DNA of 46,718 nt from Candidatus Doudnabacteria bacterium RIFCSPHIGHO2_01_FULL_46_24. Its GTDB lineage: Bacteria > Patescibacteriota > Doudnabacteria > UBA920 > O2-02-FULL-48-8. Below are positions 3,343-34,005 of this stretch, piece by piece. The position numbers and the translations under genes are program-made. Position 1 is the first letter of the stretch. Each line of letters begins with the position of its first letter. The notes under the pieces are model-generated. The model was given only the letters and a program-made list of their open reading frames with translations. It did no database searches and was not told where the DNA came from. Where the stretch lies: positions 1-46,718 of the forward strand of contig MFEL01000001.1 in NCBI GenBank assembly GCA_001777575.1, written 5' to 3'.

Positions 3343-3374
3343 AAACAAGTTGATAGTTAATAGTTTATAGTTGA

Positions 3375-3407
3375 TAGAAAAACAAAAACTGTCTTATCCA
3401 AAGACAG
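3375..3407 (-). promoter_or_regulatory. Terminator-like hairpin in the rplJ 5' leader (possible L10-leader attenuator)
   Basis: The minus strand reads ctgtctt tggat aagacag followed by tttttgttttt, about 30 nt upstream of the rplJ ATG and about 70 nt downstream of the candidate promoter. L10 leaders that act by attenuation are known in Firmicutes. Homology was not tested. Confidence 0.4.
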
Positions 3408-3481
3408 CGGAATGTATTCCTGCGCAGCGTTATTAAGCCTTATTGGCCGCTACGGTCTTTGGAGAGAGAAGTATTAAGAGA

Positions 3482-6790: not shown

Positions 6791-6799
6791 ATTATAGCA
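6791..6799 (-). promoter_or_regulatory. Extended -10 promoter TGCTATAAT (yjbQ)
   Basis: Plus strand attatagca, about 95 nt upstream of the yjbQ ATG. Confidence 0.5.
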
Positions 6800-6800
6800 C

Positions 6801-6824
6801 AAAAAAAGCCCCTTGTAAAGGGGC
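6801..6824 (-). terminator. Rho-independent terminator after the HU gene
   Basis: Minus strand gcccctt taca aggggc followed by ttttttt, 10 nt after the stop. Confidence 0.75.
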
Positions 6825-17556: not shown

Positions 17557-17585
17557 ACTATAATCCTGTTGACTTTGCCAGTCAA
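17557..17585 (-). promoter_or_regulatory. Sigma70-type promoter for 17052..17510
   Basis: Minus strand TTGACT, 17 nt, TATAGT. Its -35 box is the palindromic partner of the rpmE -35 box. Confidence 0.5.
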
Positions 17586-17597
17586 ATTTGATATGAT
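17569..17597 (+). promoter_or_regulatory. Sigma70-type promoter for rpmE
   Basis: TTGACT, 17 nt, TATGAT. The ATG follows 9 nt after the -10 box. Confidence 0.5.
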
Positions 17598-17606
17598 TTA
17601 AAAACC

Positions 17607-17837
17607 ATGAAGAATATCCATCCTCAATATTTCAGTACCTCAAAAGTAGTTTGCGCTTGCGGCAACAGCTTTACGACCGGCTCGACTAAACAGGAAATGC
17701 ATGTCGAAATTTGTTCGAATTGCCATCCATTTTACACCGGAAAGCAAATGTTGATTGACACCGCAGGCATTGTCGAGAAATTCCGCTCGCGCGCGGCCAA
17801 AGCCAAAATCAAGTTGCCTAAGAAAACGAAGGCTTAG
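17607..17837 (+). CDS. rpmE: 50S ribosomal protein L31
   Basis: 76 aa. MKNIHPQY...C.CG......T......[13 protein letters not shown]. Confidence 0.92.
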
Positions 17838-20726: not shown

Positions 20727-21083
20727 TTACGCTTTCAAAGCAACCCGGAAGTCCCCGTCAAAAACTTTCAAAAACTGGTGCATGGCCAGGACGTCATCCG
20801 TGCTCAACGCCCGGGTGTTTTTGAAACGCGTCGTATCAATAGAGGTCAGGTCTGTCACCATGCCGACTGAAAAAATCTCCGGCCCATCAATAGCGATACT
20901 AAACACCACCGAGCTTTTGCATCGCTCGCAGTCAGTGTGGACCAACAGGTTGGCTCCCACTTGCGGCTTATTCTCCCGGGAGTCGATAAGCTTCGTCTGT
21001 TCCAGATTGTAGCGATATCCACAGATCGGGCATTTGAGAATGTATGTCAGCCACTCGATAATCTTTTTGAAATCGCTCTTCAT
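20727..21083 (-). CDS. Hypothetical zinc-ribbon protein
   Basis: 118 aa. CPICG...(26 aa)...CERC. Confidence 0.6.
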   Translation of the reverse strand: MKSDFKKIIEWLTYILKCPICGYRYNLEQTKLIDSRENKPQVGANLLVHTDCERCKSSVVFSIAIDGPEIFSVGMVTDLTSIDTTRFKNTRALSTDDVLAMHQFLKVFDGDFRVALKA

Positions 21084-21265
21084 AAGATAATTGTAAAGTC
21101 GATAAACTTAGGCGTCAACCCAGTAATACAACTTCGATTGTTTTTGCAGCCAAATGGTCAAAGTTAAAGCTTTGAGCGGCAACAATCTAGTTTTTATTTA
21201 TGACCAGCGTCCAATCAGACAAAAAATATTTAGACCATTTATCGAAGTTGATATACTGGGTCAAA

Positions 21266-26860: not shown

Positions 26861-27055
26861 AAGCTTTTGAGAGCCTTGAAGCGGACTCACCAACCGCGGA
26901 GCTCTCACGCTGGCTTTAGAGCGTTATCAAAGAAACAAAGTGGGTTGTTAACGGTTAATCGTCAATAGTTAACAGTCAACTTGGGTGGAACCCCCAAGCC
27001 CCAGTTTGAAAAACTGGAGCTGGGCCCAAGCAGTGATGCTTGGTTATTTTATTTT
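26861..27055 (+). promoter_or_regulatory. T-box leader (Thr, specifier ACC) with intrinsic terminator, upstream of thrS
   Basis: T-box core caacttGGGTGGaACCcc at about 26977-26994. Terminator ccaagca gtga tgcttgg followed by ttattttatttt (27026-27055). cttggg (26980-26985) can alternatively pair with cccaag (27025-27030), the 5' arm of the terminator. Stem I is tgagagc...gctctca enclosing gcgg actcACCaa ccgc. Confidence 0.72.
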
Positions 27056-27086
27056 CCCCTTTACGCCCTTTAATCCCATTAACCCC
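27056..27086. repeat. 9-nt periodic C-tract/G-tract repeat, copy 2 of 3 (thrS 5' UTR)
   Basis: cccc tttacg ccc tttaat ccc attaa cccc. The minus strand reads GGGG TTAAT GGG ATTAAA GGG CGTAAA GGGG. Confidence 0.55.
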
Positions 27087-27092
27087 ATATCT

Positions 27093-28850
27093 ATGACAAA
27101 ACAATCTCAAGAATACCTCGACAATCTCCGGCACTCCTGCGCCCACCTTTTAGCCGCGGCAGTGATGCAATTGTGGCCCAACGCCAAGCGGGCCATCGGC
27201 CCGTCCATCGAAAACGGCTTTTATTTTGATTTTGACTTTGGTAAGGACAAAATTTCGGAAAAAGATTTTGGCAGGATTGAAAAAAAGATGCGCGAAATCG
27301 CCCCGACCTGGGACGGCTTTAAGCGCCACGAACTGCCCAAAGAAGCGGCCAAAAAAGAATACCCGGGCAACCCGTACAAGCACGAACTGATTGATGAATT
27401 TGCCAGCAAAGGCGAAAAATTAAGCTTTTACAAATCAGGAAATTATTGGGACCTTTGCCGCGGCGGGCACATTGACAATCCCAAAAAAGAGCTGCAGCAC
27501 TTCAAGCTTTTGAGCGTAGCCGGCGCCTACTGGCGCGGCTCCGAAAAAAACCCGATGCTAACGCGCATCTACGCCACCTGCTGGCCGAGCCAAAAAGAAC
27601 TGGACGATTATTTGAAGATGCGGGAAGAAGCGGAAAAACGCGACCATAGGATTTTGGGTGAAAAATTGGGCATATTCACTTTTGCCGAGGAAGTCGGCAT
27701 GGGCTTGCCGCTTTGGCTGCCAAAAGGCACAATCATCCGCGAAGAACTGGAAGCCTGGGCTAAGGAAACCGAAAAACAATGGGGCTATCAAAGAGTGGCC
27801 ACTCCGCACATCACCAAGGAAGAGTTGTATAAAATCTCGGGACATCTTCCCTATTACGCCGAAGACATGTATTCACCCATAGATATCGAAGGCGCGAAAT
27901 ATTACCTCAAGCCCATGAACTGTCCGCATCACCATATGATTTACAAATCAAAAATCCACAGCTACCGCGAATTGCCCCTGCGTCTGACTGAATACGGCCA
28001 GCTTTACCGGTTTGAACAATCTGGAGCATTACATGGCCTGATGCGCGTACGCGGCTTTTGCCAAAACGACGCCCATATTTATCTGGCAGAAAAAGATGTT
28101 CCGGGGGAATTCGCCCGTGTCATGGAAATGCATAAGTATTACTATGACAGGCTGGGAATAAAAAACTTCAAAATCAAGCTCGGGCTGCGCGACCCTAAAA
28201 ATCTGCGGAAAAAATACCACGGCGACGATGCCATGTGGAAACGGGCCGAAAAATTGACGCGCGAAGGGTTGGAAAAATCCAAAGTGAAGTTTGAGGAAGA
28301 TATCGGGAGCGCGGCGCACTACGGCCCCAAAGGCGATGTCATAATCGAGTCAGTCATTGGCAAAGAATATGCAATCGGCACGGTCCAAGTTGACCTATAC
28401 ATGCCTAGTCGGTTTGGCCTTTATTTTGTCAACGAACGGGGCGAGCATGAACAGTCAGCTATTATCCACCGCGCGCCCTTGGGCAGCCACGAGCGCATGG
28501 TTGGATTTTTGATCGAGCATTTCGCCGGCGCTTTCCCAGTTTGGCTCTCTCCGGTCCAGGTGGCCGTGCTGCCGATTTCCGACAAACAGGTCAAATACGC
28601 GCAAAAGGTTGTGGATGAGCTTGTCAAGAACAATATCCGCGTGGATTTTTACAACCGCCCTGAATCAATTGGCAAAAAAATCCGCGAAGCGGAAATACAA
28701 AAAATTCCCTATATGCTGATCATCGGCGAAAAAGAGCAGAGAGCCAAATCAATAGCCGTGCGGGCGAGGAACAACAAAAATTTGGGGGTCATGAAATTGG
28801 ATAGATTTGTTGACCGGGTGCTGAAAGAAATAAAAACCAAGAAAATATAA
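27093..28850 (+). CDS. thrS: Threonyl-tRNA synthetase (no N-terminal TGS domain)
   Basis: The ORF track begins at 26985 with a non-ATG codon inside the T-box terminator region. The ATG at 27093 gives MTKQSQEYLDNLRHSCAHLLAAA..., which aligns to the start of the editing domain (HxxxH...CxxxH family) as I recall E. coli ThrRS. Class II core and anticodon-binding domain follow. Confidence 0.92.
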   Translation: MTKQSQEYLDNLRHSCAHLLAAAVMQLWPNAKRAIGPSIENGFYFDFDFGKDKISEKDFGRIEKKMREIAPTWDGFKRHELPKEAAKKEYPGNPYKHELIDEFASKGEKLSFYKSGNYWDLCRGGHIDNPKKELQHFKLLSVAGAYWRGSEKNPMLTRIYATCWPSQKELDDYLKMREEAEKRDHRILGEKLGIFTFAEEVGMGLPLWLPKGTIIREELEAWAKETEKQWGYQRVATPHITKEELYKISGHLPYYAEDMYSPIDIEGAKYYLKPMNCPHHHMIYKSKIHSYRELPLRLTEYGQLYRFEQSGALHGLMRVRGFCQNDAHIYLAEKDVPGEFARVMEMHKYYYDRLGIKNFKIKLGLRDPKNLRKKYHGDDAMWKRAEKLTREGLEKSKVKFEEDIGSAAHYGPKGDVIIESVIGKEYAIGTVQVDLYMPSRFGLYFVNERGEHEQSAIIHRAPLGSHERMVGFLIEHFAGAFPVWLSPVQVAVLPISDKQVKYAQKVVDELVKNNIRVDFYNRPESIGKKIREAEIQKIPYMLIIGEKEQRAKSIAVRARNNKNLGVMKLDRFVDRVLKEIKTKKI

Positions 28851-28959: not shown

Positions 28960-29763
28960 TTAGCGGATGCGCGCGTAGCCGCGTTCCGGCGAACGCACAT
29001 CGAAGCGATACATCGCGCCTTGGGGCGAGATGTACAGCACAGTGTACGGATCCAGCGCCTCGCCTTCGTAGTACACGACGGTCGTTGGCCTGCCTGAGTT
29101 CGCCGAGAACATCGGCGTGATCAAGCTAGCCGCCTCTTGCGTGTCCTGCGCGAAGCTCATGGATGTGAACGATGGCGTCAGCGAGCTGAGCGGCCCTTTG
29201 ATCCACCAATGCCCGCCTTCCTGCGAAGCGCGGAGACTAGACGGGTTAATGGCCGCCTTGCTGTCCGGCAGTTCGAGTTCGAACCGCATCTTCTGGAAGG
29301 ACTCACCCTTCCAGAAATGGACAACGTCGCCGTCCTTGGCCGGCACATTGGACAGCACCGTGCTGTCCGATTCCGGGTAACGGGGCTGCCCATTGGCATA
29401 ACCGGTGACCACAGTCCAGCCGCAGCTGAGGACACCGACGGTTCCGCCCGAAAGCGTATCGTTGGGTGCCAGCTGAGGCACCACTGCATTGCGCATCTGG
29501 CCGGACGCGATGGCCCTGAACGCCTCAGGGCAGGAAGTCCGCCAAGGAGCCGCGGGGTCCGGTGTGGTCCGCGTGTAGTCTCCGATCAGGCGCGTGAGCG
29601 CCAGGTTGGGCGCATTGGTAGCGCCGGAACCGGGATTCCCTGTCCCCGGCGTGGTCCGCGACGGACCGGTCGGCGACCCGTTGTCATCCTTGCCGCAACC
29701 GAACCCGGCTGCGGAGATCACCATCACGAACGCGAGAGCCAGTTTCCAGTTGCGCATGTGCAT
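28960..29763 (-). CDS. Lipoprotein, unknown function (G+C-rich island)
   Basis: The ORF track extends to 29829. Preferred start MHMRNWKLALAFVMVISAAGFGC (ATG at 29761-29763, Shine-Dalgarno site acGGAGGAG). The sequence has a lipobox-like AAGFGC. A spot count of one 60-nt line gives 37/60 G+C here against 23/60 in thrS. Confidence 0.6.
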   Translation of the reverse strand: MHMRNWKLALAFVMVISAAGFGCGKDDNGSPTGPSRTTPGTGNPGSGATNAPNLALTRLIGDYTRTTPDPAAPWRTSCPEAFRAIASGQMRNAVVPQLAPNDTLSGGTVGVLSCGWTVVTGYANGQPRYPESDSTVLSNVPAKDGDVVHFWKGESFQKMRFELELPDSKAAINPSSLRASQEGGHWWIKGPLSSLTPSFTSMSFAQDTQEAASLITPMFSANSGRPTTVVYYEGEALDPYTVLYISPQGAMYRFDVRSPERGYARIR

Positions 29764-29820
29764 CTCCTCCGTATAGTGTGATTGCCTAGTATCCTCCCTG
29801 ATGTTGCTAGGGAACGCTAT

Positions 29821-29849
29821 ATCATACAAGAAACCTAAGCATTCGTCAA
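29821..29849 (-). promoter_or_regulatory. Sigma70-type promoter of the lipoprotein gene
   Basis: Minus strand TTGACG, 17 nt, TATGAT. Confidence 0.5.
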
Positions 29850-31192: not shown

Positions 31193-31399
31193 TTAGGGCG
31201 AGCCGTTGCACCACGTGCCCGGCTGCCGCAGACAGTGGTTGGCGTAGTCAACCAAGATATCGCCTTCGCCAGCCTTCTGGTCACGTTCAGGCTTTGGAGA
31301 TCCGGCACCCTCCACCCGATTACTCAACCACTGTTTGAAGTGTCGTGGATCTGATTTCTGGAAATCCTCGCCAATCCTGCGCATCGTGCAGTCGCACAT
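31193..31399 (-). CDS. Candidate 68-aa Cys-containing protein (third gene of the G+C-rich island)
   Basis: ATG at 31397-31399, preceded by ccAGGAGGaacacg (MCDCTMRRIGEDF...ANHCLRQPGTWCNGSP). It overlaps the 3' end of 31320..31706 in another frame. I cannot decide which of the two frames is translated in the overlap. Confidence 0.4.
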   Translation of the reverse strand: MCDCTMRRIGEDFQKSDPRHFKQWLSNRVEGAGSPKPERDQKAGEGDILVDYANHCLRQPGTWCNGSP

Positions 31400-31706
31400 C
31401 GTGTTCCTCCTGGTTTCTTTGTGGAATCTCCCTAACCGTGAAGGTGTGGCCATAGGGACATCGGAATACCGCTCCTCCCATGAATCGCTTGAAAAGCCGC
31501 CAACTGTCCTGATCATCACGGCCACATCTGGGGCATCGCTTGCTGGTTTTCCCACTGCTCTCACAGACAGTGCTGAAACAGTAACCAACTTGTTCATGCT
31601 CGCTGCGCACGAGCTGCTGGTCACAGATCCGGCATCTAGTCTTCATCAGCCACCAGCCTCTGCGGTGACTGAACCGTTGGGGCACCCAGACCTTTGGTCG
31701 AGGCAT
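31320..31706 (-). CDS. Cys-rich double zinc-ribbon protein, paralog 2
   Basis: 128 aa (or 108 aa from MKTRCRIC at 31646). CRIC-14-CFSTVC-9-CPRCG-21-CPYGH. Same Cys spacing logic as 31718..31963. Confidence 0.5.
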   Translation of the reverse strand: MPRPKVWVPQRFSHRRGWWLMKTRCRICDQQLVRSEHEQVGYCFSTVCESSGKTSKRCPRCGRDDQDSWRLFKRFMGGAVFRCPYGHTFTVREIPQRNQEEHDVRLHDAQDWRGFPEIRSTTLQTVVE

Positions 31707-31717
31707 GGATTCTTCCC

Positions 31718-31963
31718 TTAGACTCCCGCCGCAGCGAATCCCTGGAGCAGTTCATGTCGCAAATTGTTCCGCCCGCAGTCATCGCACTCCAGCCGCGTCA
31801 CGTTGACGCCGCCCACGACCTGAGACGAGCCACATGCCGGGCATCTGGCAGAACGCCCGGGAAACTTCAAGATCAGCGGACAAGCCGCGTTGTCACATCG
31901 CCCCCAGTCCTGATCGCCGTGCAGACGCTCAAAGCAGTATTTGCAGCACACATCCAGCATCAT
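31718..31963 (-). CDS. Cys-rich double zinc-ribbon protein, paralog 1
   Basis: The ORF track extends to 31996. Preferred start MMLDVCC (ATG at 31961-31963), preceded by aaAGGAGGaaagcg. CKYC-12-CDNAAC-12-CPACG-15-CDDCG. Confidence 0.55.
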   Translation of the reverse strand: MMLDVCCKYCFERLHGDQDWGRCDNAACPLILKFPGRSARCPACGSSQVVGGVNVTRLECDDCGRNNLRHELLQGFAAAGV

Positions 31964-31991
31964 CGCTTTCCTCCTTTTTTGAAATTGATTT

Positions 31992-32023
31992 AACAAACAA
32001 AAACGCCTCTCTTTCGAAGAGGC
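31992..32023 (-). terminator. Intrinsic terminator inside the 5' leader of the Cys-rich operon (attenuator hairpin 3:4)
   Basis: Minus strand gcctctt cgaaa gagaggc followed by gtttttgtttgtt, about 30 nt upstream of the Shine-Dalgarno site of 31718..31963. Confidence 0.5.
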
Positions 32024-32051
32024 TTATGTTTGCGGTTTTACGCAACAGCAA

Positions 32052-32114
32052 TCACGCCTCTTCGAGCAAAGAGGTGGTAGTGGTCATCGCTGAATTGCTG
32101 ATTTGCTGTCGCAT
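32052..32114 (-). CDS. Candidate 20-aa leader peptide with four consecutive Thr codons
   Basis: Hand translation gives MRQQISNSAMTTTTSLLEEA-stop. The ATG lies 6 nt after the -10 box (leaderless geometry). Thr codons ACC ACT ACC ACC are at 32073-32084. The stop abuts hairpin segment 2. Confidence 0.35.
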   Translation of the reverse strand: MRQQISNSAMTTTTSLLEEA

Positions 32115-32120
32115 GTTGCA

Positions 32121-32149
32121 ATGTTAGCCGACAAAAACGATTTTGTCAA
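32121..32149 (-). promoter_or_regulatory. Sigma70-type promoter of the Cys-rich operon leader
   Basis: Minus strand TTGACA, 17 nt, TAACAT. It starts 6 nt after the gatB stop. Confidence 0.5.
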
Positions 32150-32155
32150 AACGAT

Positions 32156-33616
32156 CTAGATCCCAAGCTCTTTTTTGAGCAACTCGTTTATGACCTGTGG
32201 ATTACCCTTACCTTTAAGCTCTTTCATGACCAACCCGACCAAAAATCCGATCGCTTTCGGGTTCCCTCTCGCGTCCTCTACTCCCTTTGAGTTCCCTGCA
32301 ATAACTTTTTTAACCGATTCCAAAATAACTGACTCATCCGAAACCTGGCTTAGACCCATTGATTCCAAAAGGTTGCTGGGATCTTCGCCGGTTGCGAACA
32401 TTTTGGCAAAGACGTCTTTGGCCGCCAGCTGAGAGACTCTGCCTTGGGCGATCAATTTCATGAGCTCGGCAAAATTTTCGGCCGTGACTTTTGACTGGGC
32501 AGGAAGCAGTTTACGCTCATTTAGCAGCGCGGAAAACTGACCCAATGCCCAATTAGCGGCCATCTTCGTATGCAGAGCGTGGTCTTGCTGGTTGAATTGG
32601 ATATGCTCAGCGGCCAGCCACGCATCAAACTCCGAAATCACGTCTTCAAAATAATCAGCCAAGATTTTATTGGAAACCAAAATTTGCGCATCTTTCTCGT
32701 TCAAACTTACTTGGCTTATTAACCGCTGTTTCCGTACTGCCGGCAGCTCCGGCAGCTGCCTTCTTATCTCTTCCACCCACTCCCTGGTCAGGTGCAGAAC
32801 CGGCAAATCTGGTTCAGGAAAGTAGCGATAATCCTGGGATTCTTCTTTTGATCTCTGTGAAACTGTAATCCCCTTCTCCTCCACCCAGCCGCGCGTTTCC
32901 ATAACCGGCATCTTGCCCTCATCCAGAAGTTCAGACTGCCGCTTGATTTCGTATTCCAACGCCTGGGCCACGGCCTTAAACGAATTCATGTTTTTGACTT
33001 CCACTTTATACGGCGGGAATCCGCGCTGTCCTTGCTGACGCAGTGAAATGTTGGCGTCACAGCGCAAGTGCCCTTTTTCCATGTCCGCGTCAGAAACACC
33101 CAGGTAGCGCATGAGATTTTGCAGCTCCTGAAGGTAAGCCTTGGCCTCTTCCGACGAGCGAATGTCCGGTTCGGAAACAATTTCAAGCAAAGGGGTGCCA
33201 GCGCGATTGTAGTCAACCAGGCTATAATTTTTTCCCGGAGGATGCACCAGTTTGCCGGCATCCTCCTCGAGGTGGACTCTGGTGATGCCAACTTTTCCAA
33301 GCCGCCCCTTGCGATTGATCGGCTGGTCGAACTGCGAAATCTGATAACCTTTCGGCAAATCGGGATAAAAATAATTCTTGCGGTCAAATTTCGAATACTC
33401 GGCAATTTCGCACTCCAAAGCCAGGCCCACCATCACGGTTTTTTTTATGGCTTCGCGGTTGATGACCGGAAGCACGCCCGGCTGGGCGGTGCAGATTTCG
33501 CAAATGTGCACATTCGGCTTATCCGATTCGGCGTTTTTGGAGCGGCAGAACATTTTGCTCTGCGTGTTAAGCTGGACATGCACCTCCAGCCCTATGATTG
33601 GTTCCCAGGGATTCAT
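32156..33616 (-). CDS. gatB: Asp/Glu-tRNA amidotransferase subunit B
   Basis: 486 aa. WEPIIGLEVHVQL..., GatB/YqeY C-terminal domain. Confidence 0.95.
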   Translation of the reverse strand: MNPWEPIIGLEVHVQLNTQSKMFCRSKNAESDKPNVHICEICTAQPGVLPVINREAIKKTVMVGLALECEIAEYSKFDRKNYFYPDLPKGYQISQFDQPINRKGRLGKVGITRVHLEEDAGKLVHPPGKNYSLVDYNRAGTPLLEIVSEPDIRSSEEAKAYLQELQNLMRYLGVSDADMEKGHLRCDANISLRQQGQRGFPPYKVEVKNMNSFKAVAQALEYEIKRQSELLDEGKMPVMETRGWVEEKGITVSQRSKEESQDYRYFPEPDLPVLHLTREWVEEIRRQLPELPAVRKQRLISQVSLNEKDAQILVSNKILADYFEDVISEFDAWLAAEHIQFNQQDHALHTKMAANWALGQFSALLNERKLLPAQSKVTAENFAELMKLIAQGRVSQLAAKDVFAKMFATGEDPSNLLESMGLSQVSDESVILESVKKVIAGNSKGVEDARGNPKAIGFLVGLVMKELKGKGNPQVINELLKKELGI

Positions 33617-34005
33617 GGATTGCCTCCTCTCGGACCTGGAGGCGTTGGCTGGAATTCCGTGTTAATTTCCAACTTGGTCAAATCCGGATTGATGGTCCGA
33701 AGCAGCAGATACGCGCCGAACAGCAGACAGAGTCCGACGATGGCAGACATGATGAAGCTCCCGCCCTTCCCCGTCTGTTCCGCATTACCCCCGGCAGTCA
33801 TATACAGATATCCTCCAAGGACCATCATAAGCAGTGCCGCAAGCGCAGCCACAGCCATGGACCAAAGATATATTTGGTTGACGCATTTGCCCAAATCCGC
33901 CCGGGCATTGCCGGTGGCTGTGCAAGGGTTGGCGGCAAGGGCAAATTGGGGCAAAATAGCAATGATAAAGATGACGATTGCTATGATCGCGGCAGGGTAT
34001 TTCAT
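33613..34005 (-). CDS. Small secreted two-TM protein resembling TrbC/VirB2-type (T4SS-like) pilins
   Basis: 130 aa. Signal peptide ending FALA-AN, a Cys pair (NPC...GKC), two hydrophobic helices separated by a short polar loop, and a Pro/Gly tail. ATGA overlaps with both gatA (34002-34005) and gatB (33613-33616). The family call is inference from topology. Confidence 0.6.
   Translation of the reverse strand: MKYPAAIIAIVIFIIAILPQFALAANPCTATGNARADLGKCVNQIYLWSMAVAALAALLMMVLGGYLYMTAGGNAEQTGKGGSFIMSAIVGLCLLFGAYLLLRTINPDLTKLEINTEFQPTPPGPRGGNP

What the first reader, a model, noticed from the sequence alone, without database searches (positions are those of the whole stretch)
31964..32150. Candidate ribosome-mediated attenuator with a Thr-Thr-Thr-Thr leader peptide upstream of the Cys-rich operon
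Seen in sequence, read on the minus strand:
- The promoter is TTGACA, 17 nt, TAACAT. Six nt later an ATG opens a 20-codon ORF, MRQQISNSAMTTTTSLLEEA-stop (32114..32052).
- Segment 1 (cctctt, overlapping codons 14-16) pairs with segment 2 (aagagg, in codons 18-20).
- Segment 2 extended (tcgaagaggc, 32056-32065 on the plus strand) is a perfect 10-nt complement of segment 3 (gcctcttcga, 32014-32023).
- Segment 3 also pairs with segment 4 (agagaggc) to form a hairpin followed by gtttttgtttgtt. This lies about 30 nt before the Shine-Dalgarno site of 31718..31963.
- The leader stop codon sits directly after segment 2.

Established knowledge: this is the geometry of classical trp/thr/his attenuators, which combine a run of regulatory codons with 1:2, 2:3 and 3:4 alternative pairings.

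Caveat: the two hairpins are near-copies of one palindrome, so the 2:3 complementarity arises automatically and may be coincidental.

Inference: expression of the Cys-rich proteins may be coupled to the charged tRNA-Thr supply. A Thr T-box on thrS lies in the same window.
Basis: partly seen in the sequence, partly recalled or inferred. Interest (0 to 1): 0.7.

Follow-up and report, generated by a model that had tools for sequence, protein, structure and literature searches.

The report
Conserved attenuator-like leader in Doudnabacteria
A short structured RNA leader, with a tiny ORF at the transcript start and a terminator, precedes orphan zinc-ribbon genes in two groundwater CPR bacteria; it probably turns them on when translation slows, but the proposed link to threonine is weakly supported.

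Summary
These are the promoter, the 20-codon ORF with ACC-ACT-ACC-ACC, the 1:2, 2:3 and 3:4 pairings and the U-run.

Three elements were missed:
- an outer helix A:A' that pairs the 5' AUG with the sequence around the stop codon;
- a 'pre-3' block that lengthens the antiterminator;
- a start codon 6 nt after the -10 box, which makes the small ORF leaderless.

The window is from a Candidatus Doudnabacteria (CPR) genome. The leader and Cys-rich genes occupy a variable slot between gatB and miaA and are absent from most relatives.

One relative, L011 (GatB 76% identical), carries a homologous cassette. It has the same promoter-to-ATG spacing, an open small ORF, A:A', hairpin 1:2, an 8-bp 2:3 core, a terminator, a Shine-Dalgarno site and a Cys-rich zinc-ribbon gene. 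Stems are 79% identical and unpaired positions 52%.

The leader is therefore a real, selected two-state switch that Rfam does not contain. The four-Thr run and the peptide sequence are not conserved, and the target genes have no link to threonine.

Best reading: a ribosome-mediated attenuator driven by a leaderless uORF (confidence 0.45). Thr-specific sensing has probability about 0.2. Nothing has been tested experimentally.

The parts
32121..32149 (-). Sigma-70-type promoter TTGACA-17-TAACAT, starting 6 nt after the gatB stop codon
   Evidence: It matches 10 of 12 positions. Sites this good are enriched in the window (17 against 6.0 +/- 2.5). L011 has TTGACT-17-TATTAT in the same position relative to its ATG.
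32052..32114 (-). Leaderless 20-codon uORF MRQQISNSAMTTTTSLLEEA, with its ATG 6 nt after the -10 box; the Thr codons lie at 32084..32073
   Evidence: L011 has a 23-codon ORF from an ATG at the same distance from its -10 box. The same spacing occurs at rpmE and at a 118-aa gene in this window.
32099..32114 (-). Helix A, 5' arm (AUGCGACAGCAA plus UCA); it contains the start codon
   Evidence: Minimum-free-energy folds. It is conserved and forms the same helix in L011.
32069..32074 (-). Segment 1, CCUCUU
   Evidence: It is identical (ACCUCUU) in L011.
32056..32065 (-). Segment 2, UCGAAGAGGC; it pairs with seg1 or with seg3
   Evidence: Repeat I7. The core CGAAGAGG is identical in L011.
32040..32054 (-). 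Helix A' (UGA-UUGCUGUUGCGU); it pairs with A, or its 5' half pairs with the pre-3 block; it overlaps the uORF stop codon
   Evidence: The core UUGCUGUU is identical in L011.
32026..32033 (-). Pre-3 block GCAAACAU, the 3' strand of the extended antiterminator
   Evidence: L011 has GCAACAU in the same place, pairing with A' in its antiterminator fold.
32005..32023 (-). Terminator hairpin, seg3 GCCUCUUCGA with seg4 AGAGAGGC
   Evidence: -11.3 kcal/mol. L011 has a terminator at the same place, with one G-C to C-G swap at the base of the stem.
31992..32004 (-). U-run GUUUUUGUUUGUU
   Evidence: L011 has UUUUUUGUUG.
31970..31976 (-). Shine-Dalgarno site AAGGAGG of ORF1
   Evidence: AAGGAGG is also present in L011.
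31718..31963 (-). ORF1, an 81-aa orphan double zinc-ribbon protein
   Evidence: It has 9 Cys and 3 CxxC motifs; shuffles reach these counts in 9 and 2 of 5000 trials. No homologues were found. It shares the CxxC..CxxxxC..RCPxCG pattern with ORF2 and the L011 protein.
31320..31706 (-). ORF2, a 128-aa probable paralogue; gene callers did not call it
   Evidence: It shows weak similarity to the L011 protein (E = 0.002) and aligns with it and ORF1.

Best explanation
This is a cis-acting transcription attenuator carried by a small gene cassette: its own promoter, a leader, then one or two fast-evolving double zinc-ribbon genes.

Proposed steps:
1. Transcription starts at or next to the AUG at 32114, so the 20-codon uORF is leaderless.
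2. OFF state. Helix A:A' (which buries the AUG) and hairpin 1:2 form. Seg3 is then free to pair with seg4, and transcription stops at the U-run, 28 nt before the ORF1 SD site.
3. Fast translation. A ribosome that runs quickly to the stop codon covers seg2 and A'. The terminator again forms.
4. ON state. A ribosome that is slow or stalled inside the uORF keeps A and/or seg1 occupied. Seg2 plus the 5' half of A' then pair with pre-3 plus seg3. The terminator cannot form, and ORF1 and ORF2 are transcribed.

The signal would be slow elongation. The Thr codons just before seg1 may give some threonine bias, but that is the weakest part of the model.

Shown: the sequence elements, their alternative pairings and their conservation in two species. 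Inferred: the transcription start site, translation of the uORF, termination, and the trigger.
For: (1) The anatomy is verified.

(2) A homologous cassette exists in L011, in the same gatB-miaA slot.
- nhmmer E = 4.5e-4 over 1.07 Mb.
- A covariance model built from the window sequence alone scores 43.9 bits, E = 1.6e-6.
- The independent minimum-free-energy fold of L011 gives the same A:A' plus 1:2 plus terminator architecture, z = -4.3.

(3) Stems are more conserved than unpaired positions.
- Stem columns are 44 of 56 identical; unpaired columns are 35 of 67 (Fisher P = 0.003).
- Seg1, seg2, the A' core and seg3 are invariant. Seg4, the loops and the linker drift.
- This pattern fits strands that each have two alternative partners.

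(4) The OFF-state structure pairs in 98% of cells, with 4 double-sided changes. Slid controls pair in about 50% of cells. The 8-bp 2:3 core is kept.

(5) The ATG lies exactly 6 nt after the -10 box in both species. Both ORFs are open and read seg1 in the same frame (the AUG-to-seg1 distance is 39 nt against 36 nt). In L011, with the linker shuffled, P(open) = 0.20 and P(open with at least as many Thr) = 0.026.

(6) Leaderless spacing occurs at rpmE and at a 118-aa gene in this window.

(7) Ribosome-mask folds:
- With a ribosome at the Thr codons and the 5' side occupied, P(2:3) is 0.87 to 0.99.
- With a ribosome at the stop codon, P(terminator) is 0.995.
- L011 gives P(2:3) of 0.94 (Thr8 ACC) and 0.73 (Thr11 ACU) under the same masks.

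(8) There is no room for a promoter between the terminator and the ORF1 SD site.

(9) The same genome has other attenuation leaders: an L10 leader at 43 bits against a gathering score of 44, and a T-box.
Against: - Only two sequences are available, and there are no experimental data.
- The peptide sequence and the Thr run are not conserved, and the conserved helix-A nucleotides are read in different frames. Translation of the uORF therefore rests on the AUG position and on ORF openness, which are modest statistics.
- With a single stalled ribosome and a free 5' arm, equilibrium still favours A:A' plus the terminator: P is at least 0.93 at full length and 0.64 at 110 nt.
- With no ribosome and 110 nt of window RNA, a nested 1:4/2:3 fold is favoured (P = 0.92). 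Default termination in the window therefore depends on kinetic trapping.
- In L011 the stop codon lies 16 nt past seg2, so a terminating ribosome does not cover seg2.
- The target genes are orphans with atypical codon usage and no link to amino-acid metabolism.
Confidence: 0.45

Rival explanations
1. The uORF senses charged tRNA-Thr. Stalling at the four Thr codons is the trigger, coupling the Cys-rich genes to threonine supply.
For: - Four consecutive Thr codons lie directly 5' of seg1. With the linker composition kept, a run this long has P = 0.008.
- ACC is the main Thr codon and is also the specifier of the thrS T-box.
- L011 still has 3 Thr in the 6 codons before seg1.
- Ribosome masks at the Thr codons give the antiterminator.
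Against: - The run is not conserved: L011 reads T-K-K-T-N-T. Thr enrichment there is not significant on its own (P = 0.15).
- The last ACC is part of seg1, so it is constrained by the structure.
- The linker is rich in A and C, which favours ACN codons.
- The target proteins are unrelated to threonine, and ORF1 has 1 Thr in 81 residues.
- There is no match to Rfam Thr_leader or to any other amino-acid leader family.
Confidence: 0.2
2. The two-state leader is real, but a trans-acting factor flips it rather than uORF translation. One candidate is autoregulation by the encoded zinc-ribbon proteins binding the repeated CCUCUU/AAGAGG hairpins. Another protein or RNA could also do it.
For: - Sequence conservation, rather than covariation, in the two near-identical hairpins would also fit sequence-specific recognition.
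- The peptide is not conserved.
- Autoregulatory attenuation by a protein has a precedent in the L10 leader, which is also present in this window (PMC4538822).
Against: - No unpaired nucleotides are conserved. The loops and the linker drift, although binding sites are often found in such positions.
- This model does not explain why the ATG stays at -10 plus 6 nt, or why the ORF stays open in an A-rich linker (P = 0.20).
- There is no evidence that these proteins bind RNA.
Confidence: 0.25
3. There is no regulation. The 3:4 hairpin is simply the terminator of the gatCAB operon, and hairpin 1:2 is a duplicated copy of it. The promoter match and the small ORF are chance features, and ORF1 is expressed, if at all, by leaky read-through.
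For: - gatB has no other terminator, whereas relatives have one within about 15 nt of the stop codon.
- The two hairpin units are similar to each other (2 of 2000 shuffles score as high).
- Small ORFs with runs are common.
- The cassette is absent from most relatives.
Against: - In L011 the homologous leader does not follow gatB. It follows an extra 124-aa gene and has its own promoter.
- Five sequence blocks are conserved across deeply diverged species, including the A:A' and pre-3 blocks that a plain terminator does not need.
- Promoter-like sites of this quality are about 3-fold enriched in the window.
Confidence: 0.1
4. The promoter, the roughly 120-nt structured RNA and the terminator form a stand-alone small RNA gene. 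It may be dual-function, and the downstream genes are expressed only incidentally.
For: - The layout is a promoter, a stable fold (z = -3.3 and -4.3) and a terminator.
- Terminated attenuator RNAs can act in trans, as rnTrpL does (PMC6614838).
Against: - The element is linked to a Cys-rich gene with a strong SD site directly after the terminator in both species.
- No target is known.
- This reading is not exclusive with attenuation.
Confidence: 0.08

Closest known systems
Classical leader-peptide transcription attenuators of amino-acid operons (trp, thr, his, pheA, leu; Rfam Thr_leader, Phe_leader and related families)
   Same: A small ORF close to the promoter. Mutually exclusive anti-antiterminator, antiterminator and terminator helices. 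A terminator with a U-run just before the first structural gene. A stop codon placed so that a terminating ribosome blocks the antiterminator strand. A 5' helix that can close the leader start site after the first round of translation.
   Different: No sequence or structure match to any Rfam leader family (best hit Phe_leader, 17 bits against a gathering score of 55). The uORF has no SD site and starts at the predicted transcript 5' end. The regulatory codon run is not conserved. The targets are orphan zinc-ribbon proteins, not biosynthetic genes. The host is a CPR bacterium.
Polycysteine leaderless short ORFs that act as cysteine-responsive attenuators in mycobacteria (Canestrari et al., bioRxiv 10.1101/834739)
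   Same: A sensory small ORF that begins with the 5'-terminal AUG of a leaderless mRNA. Ribosome stalling in a codon tract remodels downstream RNA structure and raises expression of the operon.
   Different: According to its abstract, the mycobacterial system frees a sequestered ribosome-binding site, so it acts on translation. Here the structure that changes is an intrinsic terminator. There the tract (Cys) matches the regulated pathway. Here it does not.
Leader-peptide attenuators that respond to translation inhibitors, for example tylosin-dependent stalling upstream of B. subtilis yxjB (PMC6851288)
   Same: A uORF with a terminator/antiterminator pair controls non-biosynthetic genes. The signal is ribosome slowing rather than shortage of one amino acid.
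   Different: Those leader peptides have specific arrest sequences and SD-led starts. Here the peptide is not conserved, and nothing indicates what stress, if any, is sensed.
Other attenuation leaders in the same window: the L10 leader upstream of rplJ and the T-box upstream of thrS
   Same: The same layout of promoter, structured leader and gene in the same genome. An intrinsic terminator is present only in the L10 leader; none was identified in the T-box leader.
   Different: Those leaders are triggered by a protein (the L10-L12 complex) or by tRNA. The present leader has no T-box sequence, no UGG to pair with a tRNA 3' end, and no match to either model.

Membership tests
Rfam amino-acid leader families (Thr_leader, Phe_leader, His_leader, Trp_leader and others) | Covariance-model score at or above the family's gathering threshold | tested here: not met
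   There is no hit at gathering threshold in the window. With permissive settings only Phe_leader appears, at 17.2 bits against 55, E = 5.5.
Ribosome-mediated transcription attenuator (mechanistic class) | A small ORF in the 5' leader, placed so that it can be translated | tested here: met
   There is a 20-codon ORF from an ATG 6 nt after the -10 box. L011 has a 23-codon ORF with the same spacing. Leaderless spacing is seen at rpmE in this window. Translation itself is inferred.
Ribosome-mediated transcription attenuator (mechanistic class) | Mutually exclusive 1:2, 2:3 and 3:4 helices, kept across relatives | tested here: met
   All three pairings exist in both species. Only two sequences are available.
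Ribosome-mediated transcription attenuator (mechanistic class) | An intrinsic terminator between the leader ORF and the first structural gene | tested here: met
   a 7-bp stem plus a U-run in both species.
Ribosome-mediated transcription attenuator (mechanistic class) | A conserved cluster of regulatory codons for the sensed amino acid | tested here: inconclusive
   The window has TTTT. L011 has T-K-K-T-N-T. Enrichment in L011 alone has P = 0.15.
Ribosome-mediated transcription attenuator (mechanistic class) | A stop codon placed so that a terminating ribosome prevents antiterminator formation | tested here: inconclusive
   In the window the stop is 1 nt after seg2, and the ribosome mask gives P(terminator) = 0.995. 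In L011 the stop is 16 nt after seg2; a ribosome there covers A' but not seg2, and the minimum-free-energy fold still shows 1:2 plus the terminator.
Ribosome-mediated transcription attenuator (mechanistic class) | Regulated genes belong to the pathway of the sensed amino acid | tested here: not met
   ORF1 and ORF2 are orphan zinc-ribbon proteins.
Ribosome-mediated transcription attenuator (mechanistic class) | Premature termination that depends on translation of the leader ORF | not testable with these tools
   This needs 3'-end mapping and reporter mutants.
T-box leader | A specifier loop plus the conserved T-box sequence, with UGGN to pair with the tRNA 3' end | tested here: not met
   There is no T-box hit at this locus, and the leader contains no UGG. 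The thrS leader at 26867..27006 is the window's T-box.
Leaderless sensory sORF attenuators (mycobacterial type) | A sensory ORF that starts at the 5'-terminal AUG of the transcript | tested here: inconclusive
   The spacing of -10 box plus 6 nt to the ATG in two species predicts this. No transcription start-site data are available.

The most novel reading that the evidence does not exclude
A self-contained, patchily distributed cassette in CPR bacteria uses a leaderless uORF and a terminator/antiterminator switch. It induces fast-evolving double zinc-ribbon proteins when translation slows, for example when a host-dependent cell runs short of charged tRNA-Thr. This would be the first leader-peptide attenuator described in Patescibacteria. 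It would also be a case of amino-acid-sensing attenuation recruited to control non-metabolic, possibly host-interaction or stress, genes.
Probability: 0.2. Interest if true: 0.6.

Novelty: new member of a known kind. Interest (0 to 1): 0.4.

Why it matters
Almost nothing is known about gene regulation in CPR (Patescibacteria) bacteria, because they cannot be grown alone. A compact leader conserved in two species, with a leaderless uORF and a clean terminator/antiterminator switch, would show that these reduced genomes use ribosome-coupled attenuation. The same 47-kb window also holds a T-box and an L10 leader. The motif is a short, testable element that could be moved into a model host. It also marks a family of orphan zinc-ribbon proteins as conditionally expressed, which gives a starting point for working out their function.

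Tried and rejected
**Searches that found nothing**
- Strain variation. Ten contigs carrying ORF1 are the same strain (99.5-100% identical), and the leader is identical in all of them, so they give no information.
- Protein homologues. ORF1 matches only itself in 5.8e9 clustered proteins and in an exhaustive search of 1.84e9 representatives. The three weak hits are Cys-rich matches with no biological relation. ORF2 has no hits.
- PHROGs, PADLOC and phage DNA gave nothing.
- Four of five scans of viral contigs found nothing. The fifth used a loose pattern and returned 120 chance hits, none of which matched the covariance model.
- A profile of the three zinc-ribbon proteins against the PDB gave only generic zinc-finger hits.

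**Searches limited by the tools**
They did supply L011.
No further copy of the cassette was found.
- AlphaFold on ORF1 alone gave pLDDT 43, so I ran no fold search.

**Ideas rejected**
- A REP-like repeated palindrome: there is only one copy in the window.
- A pyrBI-like model using the 40-codon TTG ORF 32051..31929, which starts right after the uORF stop: in L011 that ORF is only 3 codons long.
- A weak promoter for ORF1 inside the terminator (TCGAAA-18-TTAAAT): it lacks the A at position 2 of the -10 hexamer.
- A Zur-like operator at the inverted repeat GACAAAA-N4-TTTTGTC, which overlaps the -35 box: it is not present in L011.
- A T-box-like mechanism: the leader has no UGG and no model hit.
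Full report
**1. Observation**

- Promoter: TTGACA (32149..32144), a 17-nt spacer, TAACAT (32126..32121), then 6 nt.
- Small ORF: ATG at 32114 opens MRQQISNSAMTTTTSLLEEA. The Thr codons ACC ACT ACC ACC lie at 32084..32073, and the stop TGA at 32054..32052.
- Segments: seg1 CCTCTT (32074..32069), seg2 TCGAAGAGGC (32065..32056), seg3 GCCTCTTCGA (32023..32014) and seg4 AGAGAGGC (32012..32005). Seg2 and seg3 are a perfect 10-nt complement.
- Downstream: a U-run (32004..31992), the SD site AAGGAGG (31976..31970) and the ORF1 ATG at 31963.

Fold energies:

| Element | Energy (kcal/mol) | z-score |
|---|---|---|
| Hairpin 1:2 | -8.2 | -1.7 |
| Terminator 3:4 | -11.3 | -3.0 |
| 2:3 conformer | -26.0 | -5.5 (0 of 200 shuffles as good) |

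**2.

- An outer helix dominates the minimum-free-energy fold of the full leader (-46 kcal/mol, z = -3.3). AUGCGACAGCAA (32114..32103) pairs with UUGCUGUUGCGU (32051..32040). This helix, A:A', buries the start codon and abuts the stop codon.
- The antiterminator is longer than 2:3 alone. The 5' half of A' pairs with a block GCAAACAU (32033..32026) just upstream of seg3.
- The ATG lies 6 nt after the -10 box, so the predicted transcript starts at or next to the AUG. The small ORF would therefore be leaderless.

**3. Organism and context**

- GatB places the window in Candidatus Doudnabacteria (CPR). The contigs come from groundwater metagenomes.
- The gene order is gatC-gatA-(pilin-like)-gatB | leader-ORF1-ORF2 | convergent miaA | an orphan gene | thrS.
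- The nearest GatB relatives are only 76-79% identical.
- In the Doudnabacteria loci I could read, gatB is followed directly by convergent miaA in L171, L173, L295, L296, L298, L299, L300, L012 and L057.
- In three other loci an unrelated gene follows gatB: a 429-aa orphan in L172, a CBS-domain protein in L294, and a 101-aa ORF on the P0017 contig.
- The leader and Cys-rich genes are therefore a cassette in a variable slot.
- ORF1 has no homologue in 5.8e9 clustered proteins or in 1.84e9 representatives searched exhaustively. ORF2 has none either and is not even called by gene callers.
- Codon usage of both ORFs is unlike native genes: log-likelihood ratio per codon -0.10 and -0.23, against +0.30 +/- 0.11.
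- The Cys and CxxC content of ORF1 is far above shuffles (9 and 2 of 5000), so it is probably a real zinc-ribbon protein.

**4. The decisive find**

nhmmer with the leader against the 163 loci from other organisms held at that point gave one hit, in L011 (Doudnabacteria JACQHB010000004.1, GatB 76% identical), E = 4.5e-4. Reading that locus shows this order:
- gatB, then an extra 124-aa membrane gene;
- TTGACT-17-TATTAT, 6 nt, and an ATG opening a 23-codon ORF, MTAIYGKTKKTNTSYPKRFELLL;
- hairpin ACCTCTT-atccg-AAGAGGT, then GAGTTGCTGTTAT and GCAACAT;
- terminator CCCTCTTCGCTAGGAAGGGG followed by TTTTTTGTTG;
- AAGGAGG and a 105-aa Cys-rich ORF, then convergent miaA.

Supporting results:
- A covariance model built from the window sequence alone scores L011 at 43.9 bits, E = 1.6e-6. 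Nothing else matched in about 2 Mb of held DNA.
- L011 folds on its own into the same architecture: a 14-bp A:A' helix enclosing 1:2, then the terminator, z = -4.3.
- The three Cys-rich proteins share CxxC...L...CxxxxC...RCPxCG. ORF2 against the L011 protein gives E = 0.002.

**5. Pattern of conservation**

- In the structure-guided alignment, stem columns are 44 of 56 identical and unpaired columns 35 of 67 (Fisher P = 0.003).
- Identity per block:

| Block | Identical positions |
|---|---|
| seg1 ACCUCUU | 7 of 7 |
| seg2 CGAAGAGG | 8 of 8 |
| A' core UUGCUGUU | 8 of 8 |
| seg3 | 8 of 9 |
| pre-3 | 9 of 11 |
| A, 5' arm | 10 of 12 (with a 2-nt indel) |

- The 2-nt indel in A is matched by a change in A'.
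- Seg4 (4 of 8), the hairpin loop and the linker are poorly conserved.
- The OFF-state structure pairs in 98% of cells, with four double-sided changes. One is a G-C to C-G swap at the base of the terminator. Slid controls pair in about 50% of cells.
- The 2:3 core is eight invariant pairs.
- Frozen stem sequence, rather than free covariation, is what is expected when each strand must pair with two partners: seg2 with seg1 and seg3, and A' with A and pre-3.
It also weakens the reading as a plain tandem terminator.

**6. Is the small ORF the sensor?**

For:
- The ATG is exactly 6 nt after the -10 box in both species.
- Both ORFs are open through seg1 and seg2 and read seg1 as ACC-UCU in the same frame. 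The AUG-to-seg1 distance is 39 nt against 36 nt.
- With the A-rich L011 linker shuffled, P(open) = 0.20 and P(open with at least as many Thr) = 0.026.
- The drifting linker is what a spacer that only needs to stay translatable would look like.
- rpmE and a 118-aa gene in this window have the same leaderless spacing.
- Promoters of this quality are about 3-fold enriched in the window.
- Many native genes lack an SD site.

Folding with ribosome footprints:

| Condition | Result |
|---|---|
| Ribosome at the stop codon | P(terminator) = 0.995 |
| Ribosome at Thr codons, 5' region also occupied | P(2:3) = 0.87-0.99 (window) |
| Same mask in L011, A site at Thr8 (ACC) or Thr11 (ACU) | P(2:3) = 0.94 and 0.73 |

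Against:
- With one stalled ribosome and a free 5' arm, equilibrium keeps A:A' plus the terminator (P at least 0.93 at full length, 0.64 at 110 nt). A helix that closes around a ribosome is sterically doubtful, however.
- With no ribosome and 110 nt of window RNA, a nested 1:4/2:3 fold wins (P = 0.92). Default termination in the window therefore needs kinetic trapping. L011 does not have this problem.
- The peptides are unrelated, and the conserved helix-A nucleotides are read in different frames.

**7. Threonine**

- The run of four Thr codons is unusual in the window: P = 0.008 with the linker composition kept. Small ORFs with some homopeptide run of 4 or more are nonetheless common, 5 of 398 against 4.9 expected.
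- L011 has T-K-K-T-N-T, not a run. Its enrichment alone has P = 0.15.
- The last ACC is part of seg1, and the linker is rich in A and C, which favours ACN codons.
- ACC is the major Thr codon and is also the specifier of the thrS T-box.
- Nothing connects the zinc-ribbon proteins to threonine.
- I put Thr-specific sensing at about 0.2, and uORF-dependent attenuation in general at 0.45.

**8. Comparison with known systems**

- No Rfam family matches.
- Mechanistically this is closest to classical leader-peptide attenuators. It differs in three ways: leaderless initiation, non-metabolic orphan targets and a CPR host.
- Leaderless sensory sORFs are known in mycobacteria (bioRxiv 10.1101/834739), but they act on a ribosome-binding site rather than on a terminator.
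- Stress-responsive leader peptides control non-biosynthetic genes in Firmicutes (PMC6851288).
- The same window holds a near-threshold L10 leader with a terminator before rplJ (43 bits against a gathering score of 44; precedent PMC4538822) and a reduced T-box before thrS. Attenuation leaders are therefore part of this organism's repertoire.

**9. Verdict**

- The element is a real leader, conserved in two species and not described before, with a terminator/antiterminator switch.
- The ribosome-mediated reading is the best-supported mechanism, but it is unproven.
- The threonine coupling is weak.
- This is a new member of a known kind. Interest is moderate (0.4).

Noticed in passing
window 26867..27006 (+), upstream of thrS (27033..28850): A reduced T-box that Rfam misses at gathering threshold (33 bits against 93, E = 1.5e-5). 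Stem I is a short hairpin whose loop ACUCACCAA carries ACC-A, a Thr specifier. The conserved UGGGUGGAACC is present. A TTGCCA-18-TATAAT promoter lies just upstream. It resembles the short-stem-I translational T-boxes of Actinobacteria.
   Followed up: partly
window 3374..3480 (-), upstream of rplJ-rplL: An L10_leader (RF00557) hit at 43.0 bits, one bit below the gathering score of 44 (E = 4.4e-6). It lies between the promoter TTGACC-17-TATACT and rplJ, and ends in a terminator-like hairpin plus U-run at 3408..3378. This is a second module of promoter, leader, terminator and gene in this CPR genome.
   Followed up: partly
window 17569..17609 (+) and 21118..21081 (-): Leaderless geometry at real genes. 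The rpmE (L31) ATG at 17607 is 9 nt after its -10 box. The ATG of a 118-aa zinc-ribbon ORF (21083..20727) is 6 nt after TACAAT. Many long ORFs in the window lack any SD-like motif.
   Followed up: partly
window 28960..29829 (-): A second orphan gene fills the neighbouring variable slot between miaA and thrS. It encodes 265-289 aa, has GC of 0.59 and gives no Pfam, PHROG or PADLOC hit. It has its own promoter (TTGACG-17-TATGAT at 29849) and a strong GGAGG SD site, unlike most native genes. Relatives carry different small ORFs there.
   Followed up: no
window 33613..34005 (-): A 130-aa T4SS-pilin-like gene (PF18895) lies inside the gatCAB operon, between gatA and gatB. It overlaps both genes and is conserved in that position in every Doudnabacteria relative examined.
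   Followed up: no
window 31193..31706 (-): Public gene calls annotate a 68-aa ORF (31399..31193) in another frame instead of the 128-aa Cys-rich ORF2 (31706..31320). Neither has homologues. The shared CxxC..CxxxxC..RCPxCG pattern with ORF1 and the L011 protein favours ORF2.
   Followed up: partly
window 32130..32147 (-): A perfect 7-bp inverted repeat, GACAAAA-TCGT-TTTTGTC, overlaps the -35 box and the spacer of the leader promoter. It looks like an operator, but it is not present at the L011 promoter.
   Followed up: partly
window 6791..6824 (-): A compact terminator/promoter overlap. The -35 box TTTACA of an 11-of-12 promoter lies in the loop of the terminator GCCCCTTTACAAGGGGC, which is followed by TTTTTTT.
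   Followed up: no
window 31929..32051 (-): A 40-codon TTG ORF starts directly after the uORF stop (TGATTG), with seg2 acting as an SD-like site. It runs through the terminator into ORF1. In L011 the equivalent ORF is only 3 codons long, so this one is probably fortuitous.
   Followed up: yes
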